In this document: in pieces, positions 7,005 to 19,695 of the stretch
How the letters are laid out: each line of letters begins with the position of its first letter
Numbering within the stretch: position 1 is the first letter of the stretch
IMG/VR virus record: IMGVR_UViG_3300033067_000910
Coordinates: 6,023 to 70,022 of that record
DNA: 64,000 nucleotides
Strand: one strand, 5' to 3'
Origin: a virus
Lineage: Duplodnaviria; Caudoviricetes
Position numbers and translations under genes: made by a program
Notes under the pieces: model-generated
The model's database searches: none
Seen by the model: only the letters and a program-made list of their open reading frames with translations
What the model was told of the DNA's origin: nothing

Positions 7005-8913
7005 AGCTGTTCTGCCCTTTCTTCATGCTATCGCCCCATGTAATGCCGACTTCAGCATCCACCACGGTTGGAACACGGAGGGGCACCGTGTTCTCCATGA
7101 TATCTACAATCTGTGTGACTTGTGCCTTGCTCTGAACACTAAAGTCTAACTCGTCGTGCATCTGGAGTCGTGGCATGAGACCCTGCCGCCAGCACTCGCG
7201 CATGACCAGCTTGGTCTGACGGGCGGCGGACCCCTGTATAAGTCTGTTCATACCTTTGTGTGCAAAAGCTCGACGGAGAGTGCCCTGCCATCCTTCAACA
7301 CCATTTTCCTGAAGCCTTAAAGCCTCAGTATACGGTCGAGGGCTTTGCTTGCCAACTTGCCAAAGATTCCAACGACAGCGAGCGCCATCAAGAAGTACAA
7401 CAAATCCCCTAGCTTCGGCACGTCGCATACAGAAGTTAGAAAGCTCCTGGATGAAGGGCATACGCTCGTTATACTGAGCCAGTATTCCACGAGCTTCATC
7501 AATAGAAATACCCAGACTAAACGCCAGCTTGTCCACACCCATACCATAGGCCAACCCCAGATTGATAATTTTGGCTTGTGAGCGGGGAAGACCTGTAAGG
7601 TCTGCGACCCACTGATGGAAGTCTGTGCGCGGGTTCGTATTGTAGGCTTGCACGGCCTCCGCTGCTCCACGCAAGCCAGCGATATCGGCAAAGTGCACAG
7701 TCAGTCTCGGTTCCTGGGCGCTAAAATCTCCGGCCATCCACAAGTCGCCGTGTTCTGGTAGAAAGATGCCACGGATGAGAGGAGCAAGGTCCTCGTCGCG
7801 GGCGGGCATTTGCTGGAGCGGAGGATTGCTGTAGCTAAATCTGTAAGAACGAGTTCCCGAATCGTCTGATCTAAGCTGATGGATTTCGGCGTGGATCCGA
7901 CCACGGTGAGAATTATCCAAGATGTAAGTTCCGATGAACTTTTCTCGCAGATCAGTAAGCTGTCGCCACTGAGCAATGGCACGCGGTATGGGATGGCTGG
8001 ATTTAGCCAATTCTTTAGAAAGGAACTGTCCTTGCTGGGTTTTCTTGGTTCTACCGTAGGGGATGCACAGTGAATCGAAAAGTACCTCGAGGTACTTGGC
8101 GCTCCTAAAATCATCTCCACTTTTTGGCGCTCCCTGAGGCGGGGCTTGGTGCCGTACCAAGGCAAACAGGTCTTCAGTGCGTTGCCTGAGTTGTTCTTGC
8201 ACTTGGATCGCAGCACGGTCGTCTATGAGTAAGCCCTGTTTACGCATAGCAATCGTACACGGAATAAGCTCGACTTCAAGATCGTATGCTTTTTGAACAT
8301 GCTGAAACTCCTCCTCTTTGAGTAAATCATGGTAGAGGAGTAGTGTAGACTTTGTATCCTGCTCAGCGTATGGACCGACAAAACGAGCTGGAAGCTTCCA
8401 CATTTCGTTTTTCGGATCGAGACCGAAAGCCAGCGCCGCTTCACGTAGAAGGCGCTCGTCTTTACACGGTAGCCCACGGCTCTTGCAGAGATTATCAAGT
8501 GAGTATGAGAGCCTATTTTCATCGAGCATCACCGCCATGGCGTGCGTATCCGCAATCGGATACGCATTGGGGTCCATATTCCACGTAGTCAGCCAGCCTA
8601 GGTCGTAAGGCGCGTTATGGAAGACAACGACCTTAGCTCCGAGCATGACTTCGTGGAGCCATGGGCCAACGCGTCCTGGATCCATATTACGAGTATCAGG
8701 ATGAGCGATAGGTAGATACACACTCCTGTCAAGCCAAGCAACAGCGACCCCAAGAATATATCCTCCTGACCACGCCCATCCGGCCCCCATCTCTTTGGCA
8801 AGTCCATCATCTTTGGTCTCCAAGTCCACAGAGATTTCGATACCGGCGGGAATAGAAGGTAGCCCGTCAGGCTCTTTCCAGTCAGTTTTAGGAGGAAACA
8901 GTGTCATTTGCAT
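6970..8913 (-). CDS. polA: DNA polymerase I (family A), Leu762 type
   Basis: 3'-5' exo DLET and FHNAPYD; motif A DFSAQE; motif B RSQAKIINLGLAYG; motif C HDEL. Confidence 0.95.
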   Translation of the reverse strand: MQMTLFPPKTDWKEPDGLPSIPAGIEISVDLETKDDGLAKEMGAGWAWSGGYILGVAVAWLDRSVYLPIAHPDTRNMDPGRVGPWLHEVMLGAKVVVFHNAPYDLGWLTTWNMDPNAYPIADTHAMAVMLDENRLSYSLDNLCKSRGLPCKDERLLREAALAFGLDPKNEMWKLPARFVGPYAEQDTKSTLLLYHDLLKEEEFQHVQKAYDLEVELIPCTIAMRKQGLLIDDRAAIQVQEQLRQRTEDLFALVRHQAPPQGAPKSGDDFRSAKYLEVLFDSLCIPYGRTKKTQQGQFLSKELAKSSHPIPRAIAQWRQLTDLREKFIGTYILDNSHRGRIHAEIHQLRSDDSGTRSYRFSYSNPPLQQMPARDEDLAPLIRGIFLPEHGDLWMAGDFSAQEPRLTVHFADIAGLRGAAEAVQAYNTNPRTDFHQWVADLTGLPRSQAKIINLGLAYGMGVDKLAFSLGISIDEARGILAQYNERMPFIQELSNFCMRRAEARGFVVLLDGARCRWNLWQVGKQSPRPYTEALRLQENGVEGWQGTLRRAFAHKGMNRLIQGSAARQTKLVMRECWRQGLMPRLQMHDELDFSVQSKAQVTQIVDIMENTVPLRVPTVVDAEVGITWGDSMKKGQNSYEQAAARLKAA

Positions 8914-9095: not shown

Positions 9096-9566
9096 TTACC
9101 TATCCAGACTGGAATTTTCTCGCCTGGAAGGGACGGGTCTGTCTTCTTGGTCCTGATATTTTCCTTGATAACCGAGAACAGGGTGCGTAGTCTGGTGGAA
9201 AATAACCTGAGCAATCGGTTGACCAGCAATGATCTCGAGGGGTTCGTTTCCATGGTACACGAGCTCCAGCGTGAGGTAGCCGCGCCAGCCGGGGTCTAGC
9301 ACCGTATTGAACACCCCTAGTCCTTTGCGGACCAGCGACGATTTGTCATGAACAATACCGACCACGTTGTTCGGCATCGTGAACCGCTCTACGGTACTCG
9401 CCAGCACGAAGTCGCCCTTGTTCAGGATGTACCCCTGTTTGATACAGATATCATAGCACGCTTGACCGAGACCGAAACTTAGCCCGGTCTGTGCATGAAC
9501 TCCGCGACGAACGCATGGCGAAATGATTCCGTACACCTCGATGTCGATGCCGGTCAGAATTGACAT
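9096..9566 (-). CDS. dcd: dCTP deaminase (trimeric dUTPase superfamily)
   Basis: HDKSSLVRKGL, NTVLDPGWRGYLTLEL, IAQVIF, YQGKYQ.Q motifs. Confidence 0.85.
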   Translation of the reverse strand: MSILTGIDIEVYGIISPCVRRGVHAQTGLSFGLGQACYDICIKQGYILNKGDFVLASTVERFTMPNNVVGIVHDKSSLVRKGLGVFNTVLDPGWRGYLTLELVYHGNEPLEIIAGQPIAQVIFHQTTHPVLGYQGKYQDQEDRPVPSRRENSSLDR

Positions 9567-9683
9567 TTTTCAGTTCCTCTAAAATACTGTTCAAAACGTT
9601 CTGCATTCCCAGGATGTGATAAGTCTCCTGACTCATCACGCCGCTGTTCATCACGCTGTGATAGATAGGACTATAGCCGGGCA

Positions 9684-10184
9684 TCATGCCCCGTCCTCCT
9701 CTTGAAAAGCGTGCTTATTGCTGTCTTCACGCGGGACCATAGGCTGTTTCGACGACCACTCGTAGAAAGTGTCGATGGGACCTTTGCTACGGTTGGCTTC
9801 GGCATAGCGCCGGTACTGGTCATGGATGTCGTTGGTATTGGTGATGCTGATTGCGACAGCGGGGTCGGGCTTGTATGTGAATGTGCCACCGAGCGGCGCC
9901 TGCTCATACGCACGCTTCTTTTCATCACTCTCCCCCAACTGCTGACTGATCAGGGTTGCGTAACCAGCCATGTCGTCCCAATGGTCCTTGACGTTAGGGT
10001 CGCCAGTCAGAATCCGTCCTATCTTGTGAGCCTCCATATGGAGCGTCTCACGCTGACAGTCGGTCAGCTTACTCCAGTTGGGTGTACCCATCCAAAGCTG
10101 AAGAGTCTGCTGCGTGATGGCAGCATGCTCGCGGTAATCACCATGTGTCTTGCGGCGCTCGGCCAATAGCTGTTCAGTCGACAA
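9684..10184 (-). CDS. DUF6378-like protein, associated with nucleotide metabolism clusters
   Basis: LAERRKTHGDY...KIGRILTGDP...DHWDDMAGYATL; probable TTG start after AAGGAG. Confidence 0.7.
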   Translation of the reverse strand: MSTEQLLAERRKTHGDYREHAAITQQTLQLWMGTPNWSKLTDCQRETLHMEAHKIGRILTGDPNVKDHWDDMAGYATLISQQLGESDEKKRAYEQAPLGGTFTYKPDPAVAISITNTNDIHDQYRRYAEANRSKGPIDTFYEWSSKQPMVPREDSNKHAFQEEDGA

Positions 10185-10701
10185 AGTCCCACTCCTTTTT
10201 TCGCCACGCGATGTAAGCGGCGGATTCGATAACAATTGACTCAGGGACAGCACCCGCCCATGCCATGTCTTCCATGGCTCTGAGGCAGCGGTCCATGACC
10301 AGTCTGGCAAATTCGTTGCCACGGCGGAGTTCTCCCATACCCCACTCCGCCATCTCAAGTAGCTCGATGTACTTGAGTGTACGGTGCTCAATGTCGCTTA
10401 GCTTTGGCAAGCTCAAAGACATATCAGCCAGTGCTTTTTCTTCAAGCTCATCCATGATCTGCTTAAGCGCCGGATTGTTTTTCTTAACAGGAAAGGGAAT
10501 ATCTCCGACTGCGACCTCCCCCGTGTCATGATGAACGATGTACTCCATCACGTGCTTGGGAACATCCGGCCATAACCGCAGGGTCAGCCGGAGTAGCTGC
10601 CAACAATGTTCCGCCACCGATTGCGGCCTTATATGCGGCCAGACATGATAGCGCATAACCTCCCCGGCCAACCGAGGATCTTTGTTAACCTGAATTGCCA
10701 C
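10174..10701 (-). CDS. HD-domain 5'-deoxynucleotidase / dNTP hydrolase (YfbR-like)
   Basis: RYH...QSVAEH...HHDTGE...GDIP motif; probable GTG start. Confidence 0.85.
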   Translation of the reverse strand: MAIQVNKDPRLAGEVMRYHVWPHIRPQSVAEHCWQLLRLTLRLWPDVPKHVMEYIVHHDTGEVAVGDIPFPVKKNNPALKQIMDELEEKALADMSLSLPKLSDIEHRTLKYIELLEMAEWGMGELRRGNEFARLVMDRCLRAMEDMAWAGAVPESIVIESAAYIAWRKKEWDFVD

Positions 10702-11087
10702 GTCGCCACCTTCTGATTGCTGTCCTCGTGACACCATATCGCCGAGCGAGATGAAGTACGGGTTCTGTTGATTTTGCTATCTCTGCCCGTTGTATCCACG
10801 CCTTTGAGGTTGGTTCGTCTCTTGCGACTACAGTCCGCACGATTGTCGGCATTTGATCCTATCGTTAGGTGTTCTGGATTGACGCAGATACACACGTCAC
10901 AACGATGCATGACTAGCATACCTTCTGGTACAGGACCGTAGTGTTGCTCATAACTGTATCGATGAGCATACAGCATGGTTCCGTCGCACCAAAAGTGGGG
11001 ATAGCCTGATTTATGGACTGATGCATCCCACAGCCAGCATCCTGAGTTTGGCTCGGGACTCACCTTACTCAGGAACCTCGGTATCAT
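10685..11087 (-). pseudogene. HNH homing endonuclease with frameshifted HTH tail
   Basis: Nuclease domain (PEPNSGCWLW, AHRYSY, MHRCD...NPEHL) in one frame; HTH PVLHLARRYGVTRTAIRRW lies in the +1 frame (10685-10852). Confidence 0.7.
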
Positions 11088-11256
11088 TCTTCCTCCGATG
11101 ACGTTCTTGTAGGACGGTATCCGGGGTGGCCGGGGAGTGCAGGTCCGATTTGCAGTCTCGGCAGACGAACTGACGCTGGGTGACTATGGTGTTTTCCAGC
11201 ACTCCCTTGACCGTGAACTCAGCTATTCTTTTTGACTTGCACTTCGGACATTCCAT
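11065..11256 (-). CDS. small zinc-ribbon protein
   Basis: MECPKC...CRDC. Confidence 0.55.
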   Translation of the reverse strand: MECPKCKSKRIAEFTVKGVLENTIVTQRQFVCRDCKSDLHSPATPDTVLQERHRRKNDTEVPE

Positions 11257-11441
11257 TTGGGAGCCCAATCCTGGAATTCGTTGAAGCACTCGGGACACAT
11301 GTCTCGGTCTTCGATAAATCCGAATTTAGGTGGTTTCAGTGGTGGCACAAAATCGAATCTTACTCTGTACCACTCTCGTTGATCATCTTTTGATGACTGT
11401 TTACACCAGTCGCAGACATGATATTCGACTTTCATTTCCAT
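11223..11441 (-). CDS. small zinc-binding protein
   Basis: CDWC...DMCPEC; SD GAGG. Confidence 0.6.
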   Translation of the reverse strand: MEMKVEYHVCDWCKQSSKDDQREWYRVRFDFVPPLKPPKFGFIEDRDMCPECFNEFQDWAPKWNVRSASQKE

Positions 11442-11484
11442 TCCTCAATAACGTCGACGAACCGTAACCGTAAGAGAACTCATT

Positions 11485-11625
11485 TCACATCCCCATCGCC
11501 ATGAATGCTGCGGTGATACCGAGCCAAAGCACTCCACTCACCGATGCAGCGAGAGCATAAACATCTACCCACGAGAGAAGTATGCTCCCCAAGACTAGCA
11601 CCATAGTCACGTCGCTAGGTTCCAT
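11485..11625 (-). CDS. small membrane protein
   Basis: 46 aa, two hydrophobic segments. Confidence 0.45.
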   Translation of the reverse strand: MEPSDVTMVLVLGSILLSWVDVYALAASVSGVLWLGITAAFMAMGM

Positions 11626-12586
11626 GGCTTGCCCTCTCACCAATATAGTTCTCTGCGACCAGCCGCCAGTCGGTGGCCTTGCATTTCTCAAGTTCATAAC
11701 GCGCACCCTCGTAGTCTTTTTGCTTGAATCGAATATGAGTATTGTACAGAGGCACCGCCACATCATCCCACCATTTGTCAGCGTAGATACCCTCTACGCC
11801 GTTGAAATCAATGAACTGCTGGCAATCAAACAGGAATTTGACACCACCGGGGGTAGGATACGGCTCGCACAGCTTCATAGAGTACGCATCGTATTTCGCT
11901 TCGCCACCTATCTTGGCCATGGTATCCACATACGCATGGAAGTTGTTGCTGATCTGGTAGTACACCCCGACAGGAATATCTAGCGTAGCTGCTATCCATT
12001 CTTGTAAGAATGACATATGAACGGCGTTGGCTCCATAGGCTCCCCATATCATATCGTTGGACCTGTTGCACACTGTCATGTCGAGCTCGCCATCGACTAT
12101 GCGGAAATAGATATGAGTGTTACAGGGTTTGTCTTTGACAGTAGGACTGACTTCGAGATCACACGTAGGGTCCCACATGGTGAGAACAGCTTGACGCGTA
12201 TACTGGCTCTGTTGGAACATGCCAACAATATGTGCGAGTTGATCAGTACCGAAATGGCTTCGCCAACGGAAACCATAAGCTCCGTGCATGACTCCCATAT
12301 CTTCTCCGAAACGTGCACTAAAGTCGTGCACAAAGCGGTCGAGCCAACGAGCATCGTTCTGGCCCGCCAGCATCCAGATGCTTTCGAAGAAGTGGAAGAA
12401 GGGATTGGCATTTCGCCTCCGGTCGAAAAGTACCCTCTCCGTTGGGTGCGTGTACTGAGTAGTGACCGGCTCCTCGAAAACCATCACATCGCCAGCCCTG
12501 CTCGGCTCTCGCACACCATGCTGTTCAAGCAAATGCCATCCCTGCTTGTATGCGTCATTCACGTTCCGAGCTTTGATTATTTTCAC
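11615..12586 (-). CDS. dUMP hydroxymethylase (thymidylate-synthase superfamily)
   Basis: NPFFHFFES, GAYGFRWR, DKPCN (catalytic Cys), RSNDMIWGAYGAN with Asn at the dUMP-specificity position; resembles the YuA/M6-type enzyme. Confidence 0.85.
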   Translation of the reverse strand: MKIIKARNVNDAYKQGWHLLEQHGVREPSRAGDVMVFEEPVTTQYTHPTERVLFDRRRNANPFFHFFESIWMLAGQNDARWLDRFVHDFSARFGEDMGVMHGAYGFRWRSHFGTDQLAHIVGMFQQSQYTRQAVLTMWDPTCDLEVSPTVKDKPCNTHIYFRIVDGELDMTVCNRSNDMIWGAYGANAVHMSFLQEWIAATLDIPVGVYYQISNNFHAYVDTMAKIGGEAKYDAYSMKLCEPYPTPGGVKFLFDCQQFIDFNGVEGIYADKWWDDVAVPLYNTHIRFKQKDYEGARYELEKCKATDWRLVAENYIGERASHGT

Positions 12587-12912
12587 TTGCGTCCACCTCC
12601 GTCAGAGCCATGACCACCATGGCCGCTATCACCACCACGAGGACCACCACAGTCTGGCCCGCCGTTATCACCACCTCCGCCATTGTCACCTCCATTGCCG
12701 CCGCTAGGTGGTCCGCTAGGTGGCCCCGCCGGAGGGCCTGCGGGCGGCGCTGGCGGGCGCGAAGCGGGCGGCTGCGCCCCCTGTACCTGCCGCCATCCGT
12801 TGCCGTTGTACGGCCCCGGCAGGGGGCAGTGATTAACCCAGATGATACCGGGTGGAGGGTATCTCAACTGCTGAATACAGTAATCCGTCCAGTCAACAGG
12901 TAGATCAGCCAT
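12583..12912 (-). CDS. Pro/Gly-rich low-complexity protein
   Basis: PPAGPP repeats then GGDNGG repeats; start and stop abut both neighbours. Confidence 0.55.
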   Translation of the reverse strand: MADLPVDWTDYCIQQLRYPPPGIIWVNHCPLPGPYNGNGWRQVQGAQPPASRPPAPPAGPPAGPPSGPPSGGNGGDNGGGGDNGGPDCGGPRGGDSGHGGHGSDGGGRK

Positions 12913-13316
12913 TACTTGCCTCTCTTTATCTGACTGACTCGCGTTTGATTGATACCATAAGCCGCAGCGATTTTATACTGAGGTCGTGGATCTGTCTTAA
13001 TGGCGAGCCTTTGTTCTGGTGTCAGCTTAGTATATCCGTGACGACCTTTTCGTGCGCAATCCGACATATTGTCCGTCTGAGTGCCTGCAAAAAGATGGTC
13101 AGGGTTACAACACAAAGGAACATCACATTTATGACAGACGAACAAATCTGTCCTGCCGTGTAAGCGTTCCCATACTTCCTTATGAACGCGAACGGTACAA
13201 CCGTCAACACGCATGACACCGTACCCGTGGCTCGCACCACCTGTCCAGAGCCAGCACCCAGAGTTAGGTTCTGGGCTGACCCTTTCCCAGATATCAAGCA
13301 GCGTTGCCGGTAGCAT
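12912..13316 (-). CDS. HNH homing endonuclease with C-terminal HTH
   Basis: VSPEPNSGCWLW, RVH, VCHKCDVPLCCNPDHL...DN. Confidence 0.85.
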   Translation of the reverse strand: MLPATLLDIWERVSPEPNSGCWLWTGGASHGYGVMRVDGCTVRVHKEVWERLHGRTDLFVCHKCDVPLCCNPDHLFAGTQTDNMSDCARKGRHGYTKLTPEQRLAIKTDPRPQYKIAAAYGINQTRVSQIKRGK

Positions 13317-14091
13317 GAACCCTCACATGATGGTTGAAGGCTTTTTTCCAAAATATAGTCACCTCTGTGCGGGTACCGAACGCTCCACCTGTTTTGTTCA
13401 CTTTCTGCCGCAAACGCACATAGCCCCCATGTAACTCTGCGAGTTTGTGCGCTGCTGCGTCGTGTACAGCATGTGTCCTATAGGTGCTGCAACCCCCTGC
13501 CATGTTCGTCATGGTCTGGTCTTGCGCGTACCCGGTGAGTAGGAGATTAGGATGGCCCTTCTTGAGTAGTTGAAGGAGAATATCGAAATCCTCCATAACC
13601 TCCACGCGCCCATGCTCACACTCCAAAAAATCCTTTTTCTTGAACCCCAGAGTGCGGATGATTCGGGTATTTTCCTCGTTCTTGTATGAGCGAGTATTAA
13701 AGCCCTGTCGTGGCGCGATTCCCACTGCGCAGTAGTCTCCCATAAGGTGACGCCACACTTCGTCAAGCATTCTGCCAACGTCATCTTGCGTAGCTTTCAC
13801 TAGAGACCAGCTATCGGAACGCTCACGACGGAAGAAGGTGATATCGTCGTCCAGCATTAGAAATGTGGACGATTCACACGACTCGCCTATAGCCTGCCTA
13901 ACCTTGGCTATACCTTTTTCTTTGAATGCGTGGACTCGCACCCCGACCGGCATCTGCCGTTTGTAACTTTCGAGGTGCACATCATCCGCATCGCAAGCGA
14001 TACGGATATGCGGACGCCAACGCTCTGGGATACTATCCACCAATGCCGCCGCATGACCGGGTCGGGCTAGACTTGGTATCCAGATTTCCAT
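13294..14091 (-). CDS. GT-A fold DNA glycosyltransferase, TAGT/GREB1-like (JGT-related) family
   Basis: IPS..R, MLDDD, MEDFDILLQLL..G..N, GGCSTYRT, RTEVTIFWKKA motifs. Confidence 0.8.
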   Translation of the reverse strand: MEIWIPSLARPGHAAALVDSIPERWRPHIRIACDADDVHLESYKRQMPVGVRVHAFKEKGIAKVRQAIGESCESSTFLMLDDDITFFRRERSDSWSLVKATQDDVGRMLDEVWRHLMGDYCAVGIAPRQGFNTRSYKNEENTRIIRTLGFKKKDFLECEHGRVEVMEDFDILLQLLKKGHPNLLLTGYAQDQTMTNMAGGCSTYRTHAVHDAAAHKLAELHGGYVRLRQKVNKTGGAFGTRTEVTIFWKKAFNHHVRVHATGNAA

Positions 14092-14363
14092 TAGATTCCC
14101 CTTCCTGGAACGTAGAGACAGTAGGTGATCACACCATTATGGCACCAGTGGAACTGATTGTCAACCGATTGCCGTATCCTGCCATCACCATACTTCATCA
14201 GATCACCGTTGGGAAGCGTGTATCCCCCCGGCCCTTCCTTGATTTCGTTGACCGGTGCGCAGTCTTTATCCGAGCAACAGTCGTGGTCGTACCAGCTATG
14301 CGCCTTAGCTGAAGTGGGGAGCAGGGTTATTCCTGCGATCAGCATCACGAAAATAAGCCTCAT
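14091..14363 (-). CDS. secreted cysteine-rich small protein
   Basis: Signal peptide ending A-K-A, then HSWY..DCCSDKDCAPV...HWC...CLYVP. Confidence 0.75.
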   Translation of the reverse strand: MRLIFVMLIAGITLLPTSAKAHSWYDHDCCSDKDCAPVNEIKEGPGGYTLPNGDLMKYGDGRIRQSVDNQFHWCHNGVITYCLYVPGRGI

Positions 14364-14637
14364 CCATGATCTCCCAGTCCGCAGCCAGAAGGTCGGTCTG
14401 ACTGGCGAGCCATGGTACCGCAGTTCCTTGGACGGTGTACATCAGAATGTAAGGCTGATGTACAATAGCTTCCGGAAGGCCGGGGAGCATGACGTGGCTG
14501 GGATTCTTGTGGAGATGCAGGAACATGTTGGCACCGTTCCAACCTGTTCGGCGGATCTTGCGCCCCATACGTAGTGCGACCAGCGCCGCACTGAAATCGA
14601 CAGGGCCTTCATGTTTATAGATCTTGCTCATATCCAC
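14305..14637 (-). CDS. DUF2829 / Tad2-like anti-defence sponge protein
   Basis: FSAAL.ALRMGRKIRRTGWNG..MF...PYI...VPWLASQTDLLAADW matches the DUF2829 pattern. Confidence 0.8.
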   Translation of the reverse strand: MDMSKIYKHEGPVDFSAALVALRMGRKIRRTGWNGANMFLHLHKNPSHVMLPGLPEAIVHQPYILMYTVQGTAVPWLASQTDLLAADWEIMDEAYFRDADRRNNPAPHFS

Positions 14638-14888
14638 CTCGTATGGTGCGGGCGTGCGTTGAATACAGGACGTTTCTCTAACTGAAGATTACGTTCGCAG
14701 ATTTTACATCTACCTCTAGCACTCGTCCAACCCCGTAGGATACTGAAATGATTGCCGTTACTGCGGTTCCATCCATAATCACACATGGGCCAATAATTTC
14801 CGGCGGCTGTCACGGCATAGATATGAGATCTAACCGTATCTGGATTGTTACGGTCAGCCCCATCTATGTATCGGACAACCTTGCTCAT
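14628..14888 (-). CDS. hypothetical protein
   Basis: 86 aa, coupled to neighbours; WPMCDYGWNRS...C..C. Confidence 0.65.
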   Translation of the reverse strand: MSKVVRYIDGADRNNPDTVRSHIYAVTAAGNYWPMCDYGWNRSNGNHFSILRGWTSARGRCKICERNLQLEKRPVFNARPHHTRWI

Positions 14889-15088
14889 GGATACCCCGCT
14901 ATCCTAGCAGCTTCTGGAGATGTGTAACCTAACCGACGCAGGAACATATACAGATCGTCAGGCTTGCCCTTGGCCTCATATACGTACATACCGAGGGCCT
15001 TAGTCATGAACTTAAGTTCATGGATACCGAAAGCCCCAGCACGACCAATATCGCGTGGTCCAGACACAGAGAACCGAATCTTGATCAT
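14885..15088 (-). CDS. hypothetical protein
   Basis: MIKIRF start overlaps the upstream stop. Confidence 0.55.
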   Translation of the reverse strand: MIKIRFSVSGPRDIGRAGAFGIHELKFMTKALGMYVYEAKGKPDDLYMFLRRLGYTSPEAARIAGYP

Positions 15089-15291
15089 AGATGTTTCTCT
15101 ATGGCATAACAGATTCCGGCTACCATGAAGGCCAAGCCTGCAATGATCAAAGGAAAGTAGAAAGGTAGAAGAACCCACCACCATGACCAGTCTATAAATC
15201 CGGCCAACTTGAGACCAAGAAACAGAAGCCCTAGCAACATCAAGAAGGAGACACCTCCTTGACTCGCAGCCGTAGATTTCGCAGGATGCAT
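15085..15291 (-). CDS. small phage membrane protein
   Basis: LLFLGLKLAGFIDWSWWWVLLPF, a widespread phage transmembrane motif. Confidence 0.75.
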   Translation of the reverse strand: MHPAKSTAASQGGVSFLMLLGLLFLGLKLAGFIDWSWWWVLLPFYFPLIIAGLAFMVAGICYAIEKHL

Positions 15292-15293
15292 TG

Positions 15294-15581
15294 TTATTTC
15301 TCCTTGATGAGGGCACGGATGCGGGCGGCGAGAGCCTTGTGGTAAGCGCGGAGCCTATCGTTGACGTAGGTCTTCGGCGGATGGTCGTTGTAAGCGGACT
15401 GTAGCGTCTCTCCTTCCGGGCCTTCGTCGTCGGCCAATGCCTCGACCTTGTCCGCCGCCTGCCTCAGCCCCTCCGCACGCGCCTGTGCGAGTTCGGCGGC
15501 GATGGCTGTTGCGGCTTGGTCGTAGTCGCACTCGCCCCAGAGGAGCGTAAGCATCTCCCTCGCCCTCTCCCGATCACTCAT
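15294..15581 (-). CDS. hypothetical protein
   Basis: MSDRERAR start after GGAGG. Confidence 0.6.
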   Translation of the reverse strand: MSDRERAREMLTLLWGECDYDQAATAIAAELAQARAEGLRQAADKVEALADDEGPEGETLQSAYNDHPPKTYVNDRLRAYHKALAARIRALIKEK

Positions 15582-15955
15582 GGCCGGCCTCCATGGCTGC
15601 GAGTGCAGCGCCACCATTCGGCGACGTAGTCCTTGTCGTGCCACATCGCGTTGCCGGCGAACTCCTGCTGGTACGTTTCGCGCGCCTGAACATGGCTCAC
15701 GATCCGGCCGCCGATGACGTTGGCAGATGAGCCCGGCTCCGCCCCGGGAGCGTACCAGCCCGTCCGCGTCTCCACTTCAGACAACGCCCGCTCTTCGTCG
15801 TAGGGGCCAATCTCTGAGGCGAGGCAGTTGTCGCAGTGGTAGGGGCCGCACTGCTGCATCCCGACGCCGATGTCCACGAAGTCCGCCCGGCAAACGGTTT
15901 TGCAGTACGGGCAATTCCGTGTTGGCTCGTGCTTGCCGTAGCTATATCCGCCCAT
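15578..15955 (-). CDS. Cys-rich hypothetical protein
   Basis: CPYC...ADFVDIGVGMQQCGPYHCDNC; start after GGAGGCCGGTG. Confidence 0.65.
   Translation of the reverse strand: MGGYSYGKHEPTRNCPYCKTVCRADFVDIGVGMQQCGPYHCDNCLASEIGPYDEERALSEVETRTGWYAPGAEPGSSANVIGGRIVSHVQARETYQQEFAGNAMWHDKDYVAEWWRCTRSHGGRP
15584..15611. repeat. 28-bp direct repeat, copy 1
   Basis: CCGGCCTCCATGGCTGCGAGTGCAGCGC, identical to 16184-16211. Confidence 0.9.
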
Positions 15956-16181
15956 CACCGGCCTCCCGTGCAGCGAGCATGGCGTCGGCCACCTGATAAG
16001 CGCGCCCGGCAATCTCGGCCGGTCCATAGGCGATGCCGGTTGTCCCGCTGTAGGCAGCCATTCCGGTAGCAACCTGCCCCGCGAACCAGTCGCGCAGCGT
16101 CATGCCAGAGCAGCCAGAATGAATGCCGGGCACCTCAGAGAAGGGAAACGCCGGTCCGCCGTCGTTGATCTCACTTGCCAT
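15942..16181 (-). CDS. conserved phage hypothetical protein
   Basis: GGPAFP...GMTLRDWFAG...AY..ADAML.AR family motif. Confidence 0.8.
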   Translation of the reverse strand: MASEINDGGPAFPFSEVPGIHSGCSGMTLRDWFAGQVATGMAAYSGTTGIAYGPAEIAGRAYQVADAMLAAREAGDGRI

Positions 16182-16983
16182 CACCGGCCTCCATGGCTGC
16201 GAGTGCAGCGCGGGCGATGTCTTTCAACGCCTGTGCAGTGATCCGCCAAGGCTCTGTCGCGTTGAACTCCACGATCTCCCGCAGCGCCTCCCGCGCCTTC
16301 TCCAGCGCGGCTTCGGCACGCTCGGCTCGTTTGGACTGGTTCGCGGCCATTCTGCCCCACATGCCGGGTGCAGCAGCCTTCGGCTCGTCCCGCTCCTTCT
16401 CGACCTCAGCAAGGCGGGCCTCGGCGACGGTGGCGCGGGTTTCCGCCTCATCGCAACGTTCGCCCCGCATTCGCCAGCTACGCTCTAAGTCATCCCGCTC
16501 CCTCGCCACGCGGGCGAGGAGGTCGGCGGCTTGACGGGCTACATTGGCCGCCAGCGCGCAATCCGGGCTGGTGCAGCTCGAACGGAAGGCCCGCAAATCG
16601 AGGCGGTTGGCGTCTTCCTCCAGCCTCTCCACCATCCTCGCCACCTCCTCGTCCGTGGCGGCAGGGGCGGGCGGGGTGGCCTGCGCGTGCTTCACGATCA
16701 TGCGGATTTCGTGGATCGACAGCTTCTGTCGGGCGCGGGCGAGTTCCGGGTCAGCCAGAATGCGATCCCACGCATCGCCGCGTTCGGCAGGGCTGGCGGG
16801 CGGGGTGGCTGCGCGCATGTCCCAATCCTCCGTGCGGTCACGGCGGGCAAGGTTTCGGCGCGGCTCGGCAGGGCTGGCGACTTTCGGCTTGCACCGAAAG
16901 TCCTCACACTCCGACATCTCACGCGGCCCTGCCCCGCAGAACTCGCAGAAGCGGTACGGCTCGGCAGGGGTGGTCATGGTCAT
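16171..16983 (-). CDS. modular Ala-rich hypothetical protein (Ea22/ead-like architecture)
   Basis: Segments joined by repeated (T)P(P)ASPAE-type linkers; GC-rich. Confidence 0.65.
   Translation of the reverse strand: MTMTTPAEPYRFCEFCGAGPREMSECEDFRCKPKVASPAEPRRNLARRDRTEDWDMRAATPPASPAERGDAWDRILADPELARARQKLSIHEIRMIVKHAQATPPAPAATDEEVARMVERLEEDANRLDLRAFRSSCTSPDCALAANVARQAADLLARVARERDDLERSWRMRGERCDEAETRATVAEARLAEVEKERDEPKAAAPGMWGRMAANQSKRAERAEAALEKAREALREIVEFNATEPWRITAQALKDIARAALAAMEAGDGK
16184..16211. repeat. 28-bp direct repeat, copy 2
   Basis: Identical to 15584-15611, 600 bp away. Confidence 0.9.
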
Positions 16984-17124
16984 CGATCTCCTAAAAGGTG
17001 CCGGTCGCGCTTAGGCGAGTACGAAACCAAGCCACCGGCTGACGGGGTTTTTTCAGCATGAGGCACTCACCGTCTAATCCTCGTCCGGACCTATCCCAAA
17101 GGGACCCCTCCGGCTGGGGGTATA

Positions 17125-17574
17125 TCAGAGACCGTACTTGCTCGGGTCGATACCAACGACCTTGGCAATCTGAGCCAGTTCCTTCTTCTCGGCATCACCG
17201 ATATCACCGTCCGCCATGGCAACGTCAGCCGCCACAAGGAAAATATCCTCGCTGACAGCGACACCACCGGCCCGGCTCACAGCCTCTTCAATCTCGCGGC
17301 GCAACTGCACCTTGCCGCTGAAGCTACCCGGACGCTTGTTCACGAACTTGGTCCAGCAGTTGGCGACATCAACGGGGGTGAACCCTGCCTCCACCACGGA
17401 CTTGTTGTTCTGGATCGCCTCTATAGCTTCCTGCTCCTCCTTGGAGTCCAGGCTGTTATCGGCGTAGGCCACCAGCACGGCGGAGGCAACGATGCCCTCC
17501 AGCACGTCGAGGTTGCCCTTGTACTTCGCCGCGTTCTGAATCTTCTTTACCGCATTGCCAAAGCCGAACATCAT
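17125..17574 (-). CDS. terB: TerB-family (tellurite resistance) protein
   Basis: VLVAYADNSLDSKE and VAMADGDIGDAEK metal-binding motifs. Confidence 0.8.
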   Translation of the reverse strand: MMFGFGNAVKKIQNAAKYKGNLDVLEGIVASAVLVAYADNSLDSKEEQEAIEAIQNNKSVVEAGFTPVDVANCWTKFVNKRPGSFSGKVQLRREIEEAVSRAGGVAVSEDIFLVAADVAMADGDIGDAEKKELAQIAKVVGIDPSKYGL

Positions 17575-17581
17575 AGTCTCC

Positions 17582-17704
17582 TTATTTAGTGCGCTCAGTC
17601 CAGCGCACTGCCTTTGAGGTCACCTTCACTGTCCAGTACAGGATGGTCCCCAAACCGATCAAGGACAGAATGTCCTGAAACTTTGAAATAAGTGCCCAGA
17701 TCAT
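17582..17704 (-). CDS. small membrane protein (not in ORF track)
   Basis: 40 aa MIWALISKFQDILSLIGLGTILYW...; ATGA-coupled to the glycosylase stop. Confidence 0.5.
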   Translation of the reverse strand: MIWALISKFQDILSLIGLGTILYWTVKVTSKAVRWTERTK

Positions 17705-18096
17705 GGCCACACATAGGGCAGGTCCGGTGACTCGGTCCAGCCGTACCGCCCGTAAAAGGCTGGATCCTTACGCAGCAGGTTGCTGCGATGGGACGCATGG
17801 AACGCTTCATCGCCGAACCATGGGGGAAGAGGGCTACCCGGTCGGAACGTGAACTCTATCGTGTTCTTGTAGTTCCTGACGGTAGTCCACTCAAGTACGC
17901 AGTAGTACCCGTAGTTCTCCAGAGCAGCCTCGTAGCCCATCCACATCTTGCAGGCTGGGTGATTAGCCCACCCACCTCCGCCATTGCGGAGTGTGTTCAG
18001 AATTTGCTTGGCTTCTAGCCGTTGCTTCCCGAGCCGCTTGGTATCAAGAACATGCGTGCTGCGCTCAAAGTCTGCATAGGGTAAGAAAGTTTGCAT
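17701..18096 (-). CDS. pyrimidine-dimer DNA glycosylase-like protein (DenV/MSMEG_6728 family)
   Basis: MQTFLPY...LDTKRLGKQRLE..QIL...WANHPA..MW.G...PPWFGD...HASHRSNLLRKDP..Y. Confidence 0.85.
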   Translation of the reverse strand: MQTFLPYADFERSTHVLDTKRLGKQRLEAKQILNTLRNGGGGWANHPACKMWMGYEAALENYGYYCVLEWTTVRNYKNTIEFTFRPGSPLPPWFGDEAFHASHRSNLLRKDPAFYGRYGWTESPDLPYVWP

Positions 18097-18152
18097 GGCA
18101 CCCCCTTGGCGTACAGCACACGCTAGGCGTGTTCACAGGGTCTACACAAGTC

Positions 18153-18758
18153 CTACCTGTGTGCATATGCATCCTTCTTTAGCCGTATTGCAGAAACGGT
18201 ACCTTCCCGGATACCGTAACGCTCCGCTATTACCGAGCGAGACTCTTTAGACGCACGGATGGCGGCAAGGTTTTCGTCAGAGAGTTTAGTGCAACGAGCA
18301 CGCAGAGCGGCAGCTTGTTTTGCCTCAGCAGTTTTACGTGTCTCGTCAGACCAAGTTGCGCGTCCCAGTTTTCCTGAGGCATGTTGCAGCTTTGCACGTT
18401 CAGCTAATGCTTCTCGTGCGCCGGGGGTCATAAGATACGCTCGTCGAGCTTCACGTTGTTTCTTTATCGTCGCATCCGTATGCTTCCAACCTTTACAACT
18501 CTGACCGATAAGGTCGGTCTGTTTATCCGCCCATATCTGTTCTTTCTCGCGTAGCTCCTTCGTCGAACACTCTTCCAGTATTTCAAAGGTAAAGGCTTGT
18601 TCTCCGTCTCTGTTAAAAAGTTCTTGTAGTCGCACGCAGTGATGAGAATTAGAGCGTAACATCACGCGATGCCAATATCGTCTCTTGCTTATCTCTTCAC
18701 TACTGCCAACATAGACCGCACCGCTGATGTGACGGAAGGCATAGACACCGGAAGCCAT
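18153..18758 (-). CDS. GIY-YIG homing endonuclease with C-terminal HTH
   Basis: GVY...YVGSS...R...FEILEEC...E motif; SD AAGGAG before ATG 18758. Confidence 0.85.
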   Translation of the reverse strand: MASGVYAFRHISGAVYVGSSEEISKRRYWHRVMLRSNSHHCVRLQELFNRDGEQAFTFEILEECSTKELREKEQIWADKQTDLIGQSCKGWKHTDATIKKQREARRAYLMTPGAREALAERAKLQHASGKLGRATWSDETRKTAEAKQAAALRARCTKLSDENLAAIRASKESRSVIAERYGIREGTVSAIRLKKDAYAHR

Positions 18759-18771
18759 ATTTTTCTCCTTG

Positions 18772-19695
18772 TCACCACCCCCGATATAGGTTACGTGGTT
18801 TGCCTTGGCCCTGCAACACCCTACGGTACTTATCATACTCACAAAGAGTGTGCTCCACGTCGCGCATATCCCAATACGGCTTACCCCAGAAAGCAGGGTC
18901 GTAGTCATCATCCATATTGATATCATTCATAAGATGGTAGATCATACGGATACACTCTCCCGGGGGCCACGGAATAGAGACACCACGCTCGGTCACAGCA
19001 GAGTCGCCTTTGTAAAGCCTGAGCAGCCCGCGCTTGGCACCGGGGCCGGGATTGCACCATGTCATGATATCCGGAGCGCTCTCCAGCAGTGGCGTATGAT
19101 ACAGATCCGTTATCACTTCATAAGCCATGAACGGACCCATGTGCTTCTCGGCTTTTAACCGATGCCATGCCTCCTCAAGAGTGCGTTGCTTGCCGTTGAA
19201 GTAGTCTCTCCAGTGTGCTCGCTTCTTATTGATTTCATCTACGCAATGGAGGACACCCTTGAGTTTGTCCATCCCGGCTGGACTTGTGATAATATACGCT
19301 CCCGTCGTGAACGGTCCGCTACCAAGCGCAGCACGCACTCCTCGCTCGATGTCAGCGGATGTGGCCCTAGCTTCAAGATACGCCCCGCCCACGTCACCTC
19401 CAACGAGACTATCCTGTTGGTTGAAGATGACCTCACCTGTCTCGATTCGATTAAACCAGCGGAAGAGGACAGTGGCCATGAACACATGAGGTGTGGCATT
19501 GAATCTCTCTCTGACATTCTTAGCGTACCAGACAGTCGTCTTGTCCAATTCTCTAAAGACATTCGTAAACGAATACCTTTGGAGAACATGGTCATCCGTC
19601 CACGGCTTGGGCTCGCCGCGCTGGCGTGCGTGCCAGATATTATGGCGCAGCGTGGCAAAGAGCTTGAACGTTTCATAGTTCGGTGTTAGAGGCAT
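18772..19695 (-). CDS. alpha-glutamyl/putrescinyl thymine pyrophosphorylase clade 1 (aGPT-Pplase1; amino acid/amine:DNA transferase)
   Basis: WTDDHVLQRYSFTNVFRELD, GPFMAYE..TDL, GPGAKRGL, DVEHTLCEYDKY motifs. Confidence 0.85.
   Translation of the reverse strand: MPLTPNYETFKLFATLRHNIWHARQRGEPKPWTDDHVLQRYSFTNVFRELDKTTVWYAKNVRERFNATPHVFMATVLFRWFNRIETGEVIFNQQDSLVGGDVGGAYLEARATSADIERGVRAALGSGPFTTGAYIITSPAGMDKLKGVLHCVDEINKKRAHWRDYFNGKQRTLEEAWHRLKAEKHMGPFMAYEVITDLYHTPLLESAPDIMTWCNPGPGAKRGLLRLYKGDSAVTERGVSIPWPPGECIRMIYHLMNDINMDDDYDPAFWGKPYWDMRDVEHTLCEYDKYRRVLQGQGKPRNLYRGW

What the first reader, a model, noticed from the sequence alone, without database searches (positions are those of the whole stretch)
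9096..19695. Candidate new thymidine hypermodification: 5-hmdU synthesis + base-J-type glycosyltransferase + aGPT-Pplase1, with no visible 5-hmdU DNA kinase or TET/JBP
Seen: one minus-strand operon carries a dCTP deaminase (9096), DUF6378-like gene, HD nucleotidase (10174), dUMP hydroxymethylase (11615; Asn at the dUMP-specificity site), TAGT/GREB1-like glycosyltransferase (13294) and aGPT-Pplase1 (18772). Established: in SP10, phiW-14, ViI and M6, T is pre-replicatively replaced by 5-hmdU, which a P-loop 5-hmdU DNA kinase phosphorylates before an aGPT-Pplase adds an amino acid or amine. TAGT-family enzymes include the kinetoplastid base-J glucosyltransferase and phage enzymes that normally partner TET dioxygenases. 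Here the only Walker-A proteins I can find are the two helicases and TerL, and no 2OG-Fe(II) TET/JBP gene is visible. Inference: the phage may make a glycosylated 5-hmU (a phage base J) from pre-replicative 5-hmdU, and the aGPT-Pplase1 may use a different leaving group or donor, or give a doubly modified base.
Basis: partly seen in the sequence, partly recalled or inferred. Interest (0 to 1): 0.9.

Follow-up and report, generated by a model that had tools for sequence, protein, structure and literature searches.

The report
Kinase-free phage thymine glycosylation module
This phage carries genes that should replace thymine in its DNA with hydroxymethyluracil and then probably attach a sugar, without the DNA kinase that every characterised thymine-hypermodifying phage uses. 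The same gene set recurs in many relatives, some of them cultured, so the predicted base can be tested.

Summary
The minus-strand replication module encodes:
- a dCTP-deaminase-fold protein;
- an HD nucleotidase;
- a thymidylate-synthase homolog with the full dUMP-hydroxymethylase residue signature;
- an intact TAGT-family GT-A glycosyltransferase;
- a PF18723 protein (old name aGPT-Pplase1, now called HMUDK_hel in Pfam).

The complete 70-kb genome has no 5-hmdU DNA kinase, no amino-acid:DNA transferase and no TET/JBP gene.

The arrangement is not unique. In 50 related virus records, 23 carry the glycosyltransferase and 21 of those lack the kinase. The cultured phages PhiJL001 and LuckyBarnes have the same kinase-free set. 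phiRSL1 matches both the glycosyltransferase and PF18723, but I did not test it for the kinase. This scan had already flagged the same theme on other DNA.

Most likely product: glycosylated 5-hydroxymethyluracil, a base-J-like base made from pre-replicative 5-hmdU.

PF18723 has no demonstrated activity. Here it travels with the hydroxymethylase whatever the partner enzyme is (kinase, GT-A, GT-B or methyltransferase). It keeps an invariant Cys-Glu motif like the clade-2 catalytic site.

I rate this a new variant of a known kind, of moderate-to-high interest. The chemistry is untested.

The parts
6970..8913 (-). Family A DNA polymerase with 3'-5' exonuclease. It closes the module and must accept 5-hmdUTP.
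   Evidence: PF00476 4.6e-44 and PF01612. It holds the syntenic end position in 62 of 88 related loci.
9096..9566 (-). dCTP deaminase / dUTPase-fold enzyme that supplies deoxyuridine nucleotides.
   Evidence: PF22769 3e-21; phrog_1663 4e-46. Its cluster c35 was found only in GT-A-type loci, 9 of 9.
9684..10170 (-). DUF6378 small protein. It occupies the slot that DUF3310 holds in most relatives. Function unknown.
   Evidence: PF19905 1.6e-5, below the cut-off; phrog_17775 2.7e-20 on residues 71-152 of the 9684-10391 ORF. The start coordinate is inferred.
10174..10737 (-). HD-domain 5'-deoxynucleotidase (YfbR-like), probably clearing thymidine nucleotides.
   Evidence: PF12917 2.4e-9, PF13023 3.8e-8, phrog_6047 1.4e-33. 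The homologous cluster c9 follows the ThyS homolog in 42 loci.
10629..11087 (-). HNH homing endonuclease (mobile insert).
   Evidence: PF13392 9.6e-11; phrog_3593 2e-26.
11615..12586 (-). dUMP hydroxymethylase (thymidylate synthase homolog).
   Evidence: PF00303 1.9e-17; phrog_5131 9e-99. In the alignment to L. casei TS, Cys155 is the catalytic Cys, Asp152 sits at the E. coli L143 position, Asp178 corresponds to D169 and Asn187 to N177. Criteria are from PMC13326640.
12912..13316 (-). HNH homing endonuclease (mobile insert).
   Evidence: PF13392 4.8e-8; phrog_1872 2.5e-29.
13294..14091 (-). TAGT-family GT-A glycosyltransferase, the predicted DNA sugar transferase.
   Evidence: PF20691 2.4e-15; phrog_842 1.5e-40. 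Asp81-Asp82-Asp83 are invariant, Glu167/Asp168/Asp170 nearly invariant, and Gly199-Gly200...Arg205 invariant. AF2 pLDDT 94; GT-A fold matches to TarP and K4CP at E 1e-7.
17701..18096 (-). DenV-like pyrimidine-dimer DNA glycosylase homolog. It co-occurs with the GT-A variant of the module.
   Evidence: PF03013 1e-18. Its cluster c28 is in 9 GT-A loci and 2 others.
18153..18926 (-). GIY-YIG homing endonuclease (mobile insert). Its long ORF overlaps the 3' end of the PF18723 gene.
   Evidence: PF01541 1.8e-6; phrog_314 2e-15.
18772..19695 (-). PF18723 protein (aGPT-Pplase1 / HMUDK_hel): a helix-hairpin-helix glycosylase-like paralog of the amino-acid:DNA transferases. Its step in the pathway is unknown.
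   Evidence: PF18723 8.3e-44. AF2 pLDDT 93.9. Best structural match is PaMx11 gp46 (8z2n), Z 11.2, rmsd 4.0 over 227 residues. Cys285, Glu286, Asp51, Arg48, Arg79, Asn82, Asp197 and Asp209 are invariant in all partner classes.
20172..20897 (-). Conserved two-domain protein of no known family (cluster c17). It usually sits between the helicase and PF18723, directly or one to a few short ORFs away.
   Evidence: No Pfam or PHROG hit. It is in 15 loci, 14 of them GT-A type. Its GGKS string is not conserved, so it is not a P-loop.
20934..22475 (-). UvrD-type helicase, the upstream border of the module.
   Evidence: PF00580 2.2e-33.

Best explanation
The locus is a thymidine-replacement and glycosylation pathway that works without a DNA kinase.

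Pre-replicative steps. The dCTP-deaminase-fold enzyme feeds deoxyuridine nucleotides to a dUMP hydroxymethylase that makes 5-hmdUMP. The HD nucleotidase depletes competing thymidine nucleotides. Host kinases raise 5-hmdUMP to the triphosphate, and the phage PolA incorporates it in place of T. The enzyme identities are shown by homology and diagnostic residues. The flux is inferred.

Post-replicative step. The TAGT-family GT-A transferase moves a sugar from a host NDP-sugar onto the hydroxymethyl oxygen of 5-hmU in DNA, giving a base-J-like glycosyl-hmU. This is inferred from family, intact catalytic motifs and conserved gene order.

PF18723. This protein is a constant companion of the hydroxymethylase rather than of the kinase. 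It is probably an enzyme, because it keeps an invariant Cys-Glu pair and acidic residues like the catalytic site of the related amino-acid:DNA transferases. It acts on 5-hmU or its nucleotide in a step common to all these pathways, and that step is not known.
For: - Gene identities.
- Hydroxymethylase signature (Cys, Asp at the L143 position, Asp169 kept, Asn177 kept): with criteria from PMC13326640. The same signature occurs in 66-68 of 68 ThyS homologs next to PF18723.
- Glycosyltransferase: over the Pfam cut-off, DDD and EDxD motifs conserved, confident GT-A model.
- Kinase, AADT and TET absent from the complete genome.
- Recurrence: 23 of 50 related whole records carry TAGT and 21 of those lack the kinase. 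The same kinase model finds 12 kinases among the 27 TAGT-negative records (Fisher p 0.01, not corrected for relatedness).
- The same ThyS-GT-GT-PF18723 operon without a kinase is in the unrelated actinophage LuckyBarnes and in PhiJL001.
- PF18723 partners interleave on its tree, and its invariant residues are the same in every partner class.
Against: - No chemistry exists for this phage or, in the library I could search, for any phage with this set. I found no report of glycosyl-hmU in a phage.
- The sugar acceptor could be a derivative of hmU rather than hmU itself.
- GT-A enzymes of this fold also glycosylate teichoic acids (TarP, TarS), so a DNA acceptor is inferred from context only.
- Two GT-A relatives (L004, L045) do carry a kinase, so the two branches are not strictly exclusive.
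- The role assigned to PF18723 is vague.
- About ten small ORFs in the module have no annotation.
Confidence: 0.6

Rival explanations
1. Linker-plus-sugar model. PF18723 first replaces or extends the hydroxymethyl group with a hydroxylated linker, acting either on DNA or on the mononucleotide. The glycosyltransferase then decorates that linker, as in the SP-15 / YerA41 type of T-modification. The product is then not base J.
For: - A 2026 paper reports that SP15-like phages with heavily glycosylated T attached through a linker include members that carry aGPT-Pplase1 while no 5-hmdU DNA kinase was detected (PMC13697223).
- EP_H11 has the same PF18723-ThyS-HD core.
- PF18723 keeps an AADT-like Cys motif (DVEHTLCE against EVETILCK).
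- It is fused to MazG and to thymidylate-kinase-like domains in cellular organisms.
- It resembles the nucleotide-acting QNG1 fold at Z about 10.
- This model gives both conserved enzymes a job.
Against: - M6 carries PF18723, yet only 5-NedU and T are reported in its DNA, and gp55 was not needed in vitro (PMC8989533).
- No linker-donor biosynthesis genes are visible in this genome.
- EP_H11 has a P-loop AAA_28 protein between PF18723 and ThyS, so it may not be kinase-free.
- Z about 11 for an all-helical model is below the level at which the tool says a match is safe.
Confidence: 0.2
2. PF18723 is not a chemical step. It is a 5-hmU-recognising, base-flipping DNA-binding subunit that presents the base to whichever decorating enzyme the phage carries: kinase, GT-A, GT-B or methyltransferase. 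The product here is then simple glycosyl-hmU.
For: - It has a helix-hairpin-helix glycosylase-like fold.
- It is fused to the verified DNA kinase in SP10 gp186 (PMC5889632) and to PF02223-type kinases in metagenomes. This is why Pfam now calls it the kinase's helical domain.
- It was dispensable in vitro, where substrate is in excess.
- Its partners all act on the hydroxyl and swap repeatedly on its tree.
Against: An invariant Cys-Glu pair and several invariant Asp/Arg residues in all 80 sequences examined are more than a binding module usually needs. No fusion to a glycosyltransferase was found. The complex prediction could not be run.
Confidence: 0.25
3. The pathway is canonical after all. 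An unrecognised, highly divergent kinase, or a host kinase, phosphorylates 5-hmU, and PF18723 transfers an amine. The glycosyltransferase would then be a separate, additional modification.
For: - PF18748 missed the divergent kinase of L004 that a custom model found, so Pfam alone is not exhaustive.
- Several ORFs (19686-20138, 16171-16983, 14885-15316 and others) have no family.
Against: - The custom kinase model, run unfiltered on all six frames, found nothing in this genome. It found nothing in 21 of 23 GT-A relatives either.
- None of the unannotated ORFs is conserved across relatives except c17, which has no P-loop.
- No AADT or PLP, radical-SAM or FAD tailoring enzyme is present.
Confidence: 0.07
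4. The glycosyltransferase does not act on DNA. It could, for example, modify a host surface polymer, as TarP does. In that case the virion DNA carries plain 5-hmU, or whatever PF18723 makes from it.
For: The best solved-structure matches are wall-teichoic-acid and polysaccharide GT-A enzymes.
Against: - The Pfam family is the DNA-linked TAGT family, and the PHROG family is the one that phage records label 'beta-glucosyl-HMC-alpha-glucosyltransferase'.
- The gene sits between PF18723 and the hydroxymethylase inside the replication module in 25 loci. It is fused into a ThyS-GT-GT-PF18723 operon in an unrelated Gram-positive phage.
Confidence: 0.08

Closest known systems
Thymidine hypermodification clusters of Pseudomonas phage M6 / Sphaerotilus phage SN1 (Yuavirus), PaMx11, ViI, PhiW-14 and SP10
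   Same: - The replication-module synteny matches in the Yuavirus cluster I examined (SN1): helicase ... PF18723 - x - dUMP hydroxymethylase - HD nucleotidase ... PolA.
- Both use pre-replicative 5-hmdU.
- The PF18723 protein is 33-34% identical to the M6/SN1 one.
   Different: - There is no P-loop 5-hmdU DNA kinase, no amino-acid:DNA transferase (PF18724) and no PLP, radical-SAM, FAD or acetyltransferase tailoring enzyme.
- A TAGT glycosyltransferase sits in the slot where SN1 has Nmad5.
- A dCTP deaminase replaces the dCMP deaminase.
Alphaproteobacteria phage PhiJL001 (Keylargovirus, Mesyanzhinovviridae) gp19-gp22-gp24
   Same: This is the closest cultured relative. PF18723 is 46% identical and the glycosyltransferase 40.5%. 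The order PF18723 - GT - hydroxymethylase - PolA is the same, and it too has no kinase by either model.
   Different: - The window's module is interrupted by three homing endonucleases and about 4.7 kb of accessory genes (TerB, Tad2-like, DenV-like, unknowns).
- PhiJL001 uses a dCMP deaminase.
- I found no report on the chemistry of PhiJL001 DNA. The 2005 genome paper is not in the library.
Base J pathway of kinetoplastids (JBP1/2 hydroxylases plus the JGT glucosyltransferase)
   Same: The predicted end product is of the same type: a sugar on the hydroxymethyl group of 5-hmU. Pfam's TAGT family (TET-Associated Glycosyltransferase) matches the window's enzyme above its cut-off. Held here is only that phage GT-A DNA transferases match JGT structurally at about 9% sequence identity.
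   Different: The 5-hmU is made before replication by a thymidylate synthase homolog, so replacement can be genome-wide rather than about 1% and site-specific. There is no TET/JBP dioxygenase. A PF18723 protein is present, which kinetoplastid J synthesis is not known to need.
T-even phage 5-hmC glucosylation and the metaviromic GT-A + ThyS or TET pathways (Pyle et al., bioRxiv 10.1101/2023.12.21.572611)
   Same: The logic is the same: a hydroxymethylpyrimidine made by a ThyS homolog is then glycosylated on DNA by a phage GT. GT-A hits next to ThyS homologs were already counted in metaviromes.
   Different: The base here is U-derived (Asn at position 177, dCTP deaminase), not C-derived. Only cytosine products have been shown chemically in that work. 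PF18723 is not part of those descriptions.
SP15-like phages (SP-15, YerA41, RP13, EP_H11) with glycosylated T attached through a linker
   Same: They have a ThyS homolog, a dCTP deaminase and aGPT-Pplase1, with no canonical 5-hmdU DNA kinase detected, and glycosylated T has been shown by mass spectrometry in YerA41 (PMC13697223). EP_H11 has the PF18723 - x - ThyS - HD order.
   Different: - They are large myoviruses with UDG-fused SP15-type polymerases and extensive sugar-nucleotide gene sets.
- EP_H11's PF18723 is only 24.5% identical.
- EP_H11 has a P-loop protein in the cluster and a weak GT-B-like match (E 0.01, below the cut-off) beside PF18723; I did not test it for TAGT.

Membership tests
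dUMP hydroxymethylase (thymidylate synthase superfamily) | Pfam Thymidylat_synt match above the cut-off, and the catalytic Cys (E. coli C146) | tested here: met
   63.7 bits against 24.3. Cys155 aligns with the catalytic Cys of L. casei TS.
dUMP hydroxymethylase (thymidylate synthase superfamily) | Asn at the N177 position (dUMP rather than dCMP) | tested here: met
   Asn187 in 'GAN' aligns with the Asn of 'PFN'. The criterion is from PMC13326640.
dUMP hydroxymethylase (thymidylate synthase superfamily) | Acidic residue at the L143 position (hydroxymethyl rather than methyl product), and Asp kept at D169 (so not a 5-hydroxy synthase) | tested here: met
   Asp152 and Asp178.
dUMP hydroxymethylase (thymidylate synthase superfamily) | Makes 5-hmdUMP from dUMP and methylene-tetrahydrofolate | not testable with these tools
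   Needs an enzyme assay or expression followed by nucleoside LC-MS.
TAGT (PF20691) GT-A DNA glycosyltransferases | Profile match above the curated cut-off over the whole model | tested here: met
   57.5 bits against 27.5, model positions 1-205 of 205.
TAGT (PF20691) GT-A DNA glycosylases | GT-A fold with a DxD metal/nucleotide-sugar motif | tested here: met
   AF2 pLDDT 94. Foldseek matches TarP and K4CP at E 1e-7. Asp81-83 are invariant in 23 homologs.
TAGT (PF20691) GT-A DNA glycosyltransferases | The acceptor is a hydroxymethylpyrimidine in DNA | not testable with these tools
   Only gene context supports it.
PF18723 (aGPT-Pplase clade 1 / HMUDK_hel) | Profile match above the cut-off | tested here: met
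   150.5 bits against 25. The SN1 aGPT-Pplase1 scores on the same model.
PF18723 (aGPT-Pplase clade 1 / HMUDK_hel) | Helix-hairpin-helix glycosylase-like all-helical fold related to the AADT enzymes | tested here: inconclusive
   The best match is PaMx11 gp46 at Z 11.2, followed by QNG1 and the Ogg, AlkA and EndoIII glycosylases at Z 8-10. Foldseek gave E 0.015, prob 0.98. hhalign to an AADT profile gave only a 33-column local match, prob 1.8%. The tool warns that Z below about 13 is unsafe for helical proteins.
Amino-acid:DNA transferase (PF18724, aGPT-Pplase clade 2) | Profile match to PF18724 | tested here: not met
   The 18772-19695 protein has no PF18724 hit. Nothing in the genome matches at E<=1.
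Canonical 5-HMUDK-dependent thymidine hypermodification system | P-loop 5-hmdU DNA kinase present | tested here: not met
   PF18748, PF18747, PF18751 and the custom kinase HMM are all negative on the complete genome. The same custom model finds 14 kinases in the 50 relatives.
Canonical 5-HMUDK-dependent thymidine hypermodification system | Pre-replicative 5-hmdU supply (hydroxymethylase, deaminase, nucleotidase) | tested here: met
Base J system | TET/JBP thymine hydroxylase | tested here: not met
   PF12851 is absent at E<=1.
Base J system | Glucosyl-hydroxymethyluracil in DNA | not testable with these tools
   Needs mass spectrometry of virion DNA.

The most novel reading that the evidence does not exclude
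PF18723 is a kinase-independent enzyme that uses its invariant cysteine to activate 5-hydroxymethyluracil (in DNA or as the nucleotide) and install a new substituent. The glycosyltransferase, or in other phages a methyltransferase, GT-B or kinase, then elaborates that substituent. This phage's DNA would then carry a thymine derivative of a chemical type not yet described. It would also give a function to an enzyme family with about 2000 homologs at E<=1e-5 that has had none since it was named.
Probability: 0.2. Interest if true: 0.85.

Novelty: new variant of a known kind. Interest (0 to 1): 0.55.

Why it matters
Every biochemically solved thymidine hypermodification (M6, ViI, PaMx11, PhiW-14, SP10, SH-Ab 15599) starts with phosphorylation of 5-hmU in DNA. 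This locus and its many relatives show a widespread branch that drops the kinase and puts a glycosyltransferase in its place.

If the product is glycosyl-hmU, phages make base J, or a close analogue, genome-wide by a route unrelated to the kinetoplastid one. That would bear on restriction evasion, on type IV restriction specificity, and on tools for labelling 5-hmU.

The survey also narrows the open question of what PF18723 (aGPT-Pplase1) does. It follows the hydroxymethylase, not the kinase, and it keeps a catalytic-looking Cys-Glu site whatever the partner. Kinase-free cultured phages such as PhiJL001 and LuckyBarnes are therefore clean systems in which to find its activity.

Tried and rejected
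- Complex prediction of PF18723 with the glycosyltransferase: tried six times. The machine was unreachable each time, so there is no result.
- Near-identity DNA search of the region against cultured phages: no match.
- Profile search of PF18723 against solved-structure sequences: only noise, E>0.5.
- hhalign of the PF18723 profile against an AADT profile: a 33-column local match at probability 1.8%. Homology therefore rests on structure and two short collinear motifs.
- The 20172-20897 protein as a hidden P-loop kinase because of its GGKS string: rejected. The string lies in a low-complexity linker and is not conserved in 15 homologs.
- The 19686-20138 ORF, which sits in the slot that the kinase holds in M6/SN1: it has no P-loop, no family and no homolog in relatives.
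- The ThyS homolog as a 5-hydroxy-dCMP synthase (RB69/DLP3 type) or a dCMP hydroxymethylase: rejected, because D169 and N177 are kept.
- Iyer et al. 2013 and the 2005 PhiJL001 genome paper could not be read, as they are not held. What they predicted is cited from memory or second hand only.
- ORF clusters c21, c45 and c84 in the survey are antisense artefacts of ThyS, PF18723 and GT genes in GC-rich loci. Locus-based counts are therefore slight underestimates. The whole-record Pfam counts are not affected.

Full report
**What is there**

The window is bases 6023-70022 of a 70,022-base IMG/VR virus record that CheckV rates 100% complete. The finding covers part of a minus-strand replication and nucleotide-metabolism module. 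The module runs from a primase (22860-24416) and a UvrD helicase (20934-22475) down to a family A polymerase (6970-8913).

- a dCTP-deaminase-fold protein (9096-9566);
- a DUF6378 protein;
- an HD/YfbR-like nucleotidase (10174-10737);
- a thymidylate synthase homolog (11615-12586);
- a TAGT-family glycosyltransferase (13294-14091);
- a PF18723 protein (18772-19695).

Current Pfam calls PF18723 'HMUDK_hel, 5-hmdU DNA kinase helical domain'. It is the same family as the older aGPT-Pplase1: the SN1 gene annotated under the old name scores 1e-55 on it. SN1's aGPT-Pplase2 scores on PF18724, now named 'ADDT', and its kinase scores on PF18748.

The module also holds three HNH and one GIY-YIG homing endonucleases, a DenV-like glycosylase, TerB, a Tad2-like protein and several ORFs with no family.

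**The hydroxymethylase**

I aligned the protein to Lactobacillus casei thymidylate synthase. It has the catalytic Cys, Asp at the position of E. coli L143, Asp at D169 and Asn at N177. A 2026 study sets out what these positions mean (PMC13326640):
- Asn177 marks dUMP rather than dCMP substrates.
- An acidic residue at position 143 goes with hydroxymethyl rather than methyl products.
- D169N marks 5-hydroxy-dCMP synthases.

By these criteria the enzyme is a dUMP hydroxymethylase. The same four residues occur in 66 to 68 of the 68 ThyS homologs that lie beside a PF18723 gene in related loci.

**The glycosyltransferase**

The TAGT match covers the whole Pfam model, at 57.5 bits against a cut-off of 27.5. 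In an alignment with 22 homologs the DDD motif and a Gly-Gly...Arg motif are invariant, and an E-D-x-D motif is nearly so. The AlphaFold model is confident (pLDDT 94) and is a GT-A fold. Its best matches are chondroitin polymerase, TarP and TarS. These are the same structural neighbours reported for phage GT-A DNA glycosyltransferases. The gene looks intact and functional.

**The missing kinase**

The whole genome gives no match, even at E<=1, to any of these:
- PF18748, PF18747 and PF18751, the three kinase families;
- PF18724 (AADT);
- PF18746 (aGPT-Pplase3);
- PF12851 (TET/JBP).

Pfam proved insensitive to one divergent kinase in a relative. I therefore built a model from the 21 P-loop proteins (cluster c13) that sit next to PF18723 in related loci. 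I ran it without filters on all six frames. The best hit had E 2.4, which is noise. The first 6 kb outside the window hold nothing relevant.

**How common the arrangement is**

I fetched 88 viral loci that encode relatives of the PF18723 protein and clustered their ORFs.

PF18723 lies within a few genes of the ThyS homolog in 68 of them, and is often directly adjacent. The genes around this pair vary:
- a P-loop kinase with or without AADT, FAD or radical-SAM enzymes (the M6/PaMx11 type);
- a TAGT GT-A (25 loci);
- an FkbM methyltransferase plus a GT-B;
- a class I methyltransferase;
- little else.

On 50 whole records, 23 have TAGT above the cut-off and 14 have the kinase by the custom model. 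Only 2 have both. So 21 of 23 TAGT carriers lack the kinase, against 15 of 27 non-carriers. The odds ratio is 0.12 and Fisher p is 0.01. This test is not corrected for shared ancestry.

In TAGT-type loci the usual order is primase - helicase - c17 - PF18723 - (dCTP deaminase, UDG-like, DenV-like) - GT - ThyS - HD - DUF3310 - PolA. The window follows this order.

The closest cultured relative, PhiJL001, has gp19 (PF18723), gp22 (GT) and gp24 (ThyS) and no kinase. The unrelated Gram-positive phage LuckyBarnes has a compact ThyS-GT-GT-PF18723 operon, also without the kinase. That argues for functional coupling rather than mere common descent. phiRSL1 matches both proteins, but I did not test it for the kinase.

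**What PF18723 might be**

Its AlphaFold model is confident (pLDDT 93.9). The best solved-structure match is the PaMx11 5-PmdU glycinyltransferase gp46. Foldseek gives E 0.015, prob 0.98. VIA-align gives Z 11.2, rmsd 4.0 over 227 residues. Next come the queuine-salvage hydrolase QNG1 and helix-hairpin-helix DNA glycosylases at Z 8-10. For an all-helical protein these scores are suggestive, not safe.

Two short motifs are collinear between the families. One is a G-x-F/W-x-A/G-Y/F-E/K-V stretch. The other is the cysteine motif, DVEHTLCE in PF18723 against EVETILCK in AADT. In clade-2 enzymes that Cys is catalytic, and the Glu four residues before it, with a Thr, binds the metal (PMC8989533; PMC13458397).

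In PF18723, Cys285, Glu286, Asp51, Arg48, Arg79, Asn82, Asp197 and Asp209 are invariant in every partner class. On a quick maximum-likelihood tree the partner classes interleave. The GT-A label needs at least 5 changes. The careful tree search did not finish, so this is the quick tree.

Long fused forms join PF18723 to thymidylate-kinase-like P-loop domains, MazG, a C5 DNA methyltransferase or a chromodomain.

Taken together, PF18723 behaves like an enzyme tied to 5-hmU itself, not to the phosphorylated intermediate. Published work has shown no activity for it, and M6 gp55 was dispensable in vitro. I cannot say what step it performs.

**Most likely mechanism, and alternatives**

The best-supported reading is pre-replicative replacement of T by 5-hmU, followed by direct glycosylation of the hydroxymethyl group. 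This gives a base-J-like nucleotide across the genome (confidence about 0.6).

The main rival comes from a 2026 report on SP15-like phages. There T carries sugars through a linker. Some of those phages encode aGPT-Pplase1, and no 5-hmdU DNA kinase was detected (PMC13697223). On this reading PF18723 would install a linker and the GT would decorate it (about 0.2).

Three further readings remain:
- PF18723 is a pure recognition subunit. This is compatible with the main model.
- A hidden kinase exists (about 0.07).
- The GT has a non-DNA acceptor (about 0.08).

**Comparison with what is known**

The hydroxymethylase, HD nucleotidase and PF18723 match the M6-type clusters. The defining kinase and AADT are tested and absent, so I do not file this as a member of that system.

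The end product would resemble kinetoplastid base J, but no TET/JBP is present.

GT-A enzymes next to ThyS homologs have been counted in metaviromes, but only cytosine products have been shown chemically. I found no report of glycosyl-hmU in a phage in the searchable library. Subscription journals and Iyer et al. 2013 are not held.

This scan's own earlier notes describe the same kinase-free GT + PF18723 + hydroxymethylase theme in RSL1-like giant phages and in a marine myovirus. The idea is therefore not new to the scan.
- the quantified survey of partner classes;
- the residue-level checks;
- the LuckyBarnes and PhiJL001 test cases.

**Verdict**

This is a new variant of a known kind of system. 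It is common in nature, chemically uncharacterised and directly testable in cultured phages. Interest 0.55.

Noticed in passing
window 6543-7004, 10629-11087, 12912-13316 (HNH) and 18153-18926 (GIY-YIG): Four homing-endonuclease genes are scattered through one 13-kb nucleotide-metabolism module. Each sits beside a conserved enzyme gene (PolA, HD, GT and ThyS, PF18723). The three HNH proteins cluster together.
   Followed up: partly
window 20172-20897: A conserved two-domain protein with no Pfam or PHROG family (cluster c17) usually lies between the UvrD helicase and PF18723, directly or a few short ORFs away. It is in 15 loci, 14 of them the GT-A type. It has an N-terminal domain, a Lys/Ala/Glu-rich linker and a C-terminal NPKR...F..Y.DGMT...WD..KGFI domain.
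   Followed up: partly
window 17701-18096; L016, L019, L021, L030, L035, L048, L051, L052: A DenV-like (Pyr_excise) gene co-occurs with the GT-A variant of the module: 9 GT-A loci against 2 others. An earlier scan note on another genome reports the same trio. Why a pyrimidine-dimer glycosylase homolog should travel with a DNA glycosyltransferase is unexplained.
   Followed up: partly
L064, L070, L071, L076, L083-L091 (class I methyltransferase - PF18723 - ThyS); L036-L047 (PF18723 - FkbM methyltransferase - DUF3310 - GT-B - ThyS): Two further partner classes of PF18723 have neither a kinase nor a GT-A. They point to other undescribed 5-hmU derivatives, for example O-methylated or GT-B-glycosylated ones.
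   Followed up: partly
L004 11238-13530; L045 11043-13392: Two relatives combine a divergent P-loop kinase, missed by PF18748, with TAGT glycosyltransferases. In L004 a radical-SAM/SPASM protein is present as well. This is a possible hybrid pathway.
   Followed up: partly
P0121-P0161 (metagenomic proteins): PF18723 occurs fused to thymidylate-kinase-like domains, to MazG plus MazG_C (including in Planctomycetes MAGs), to a C5 DNA methyltransferase, and in fungi to a chromodomain.
   Followed up: no
window 9096-9566 against relatives: The dCTP-deaminase-fold gene (cluster c35) was seen only in GT-A-type loci, 9 of 9. PhiJL001 and SN1 use a dCMP deaminase instead.
   Followed up: no
The 237-aa 'GT' has no Pfam hit at E<=0.01, and the methyltransferase matches only weakly (2e-4, below the cut-off).
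   Followed up: partly
window 12583-12912: A 109-aa Gly/Pro-rich ORF lies between the HNH gene and the hydroxymethylase. It has no family and no homolog in relatives, and it may not be a real gene.
   Followed up: no
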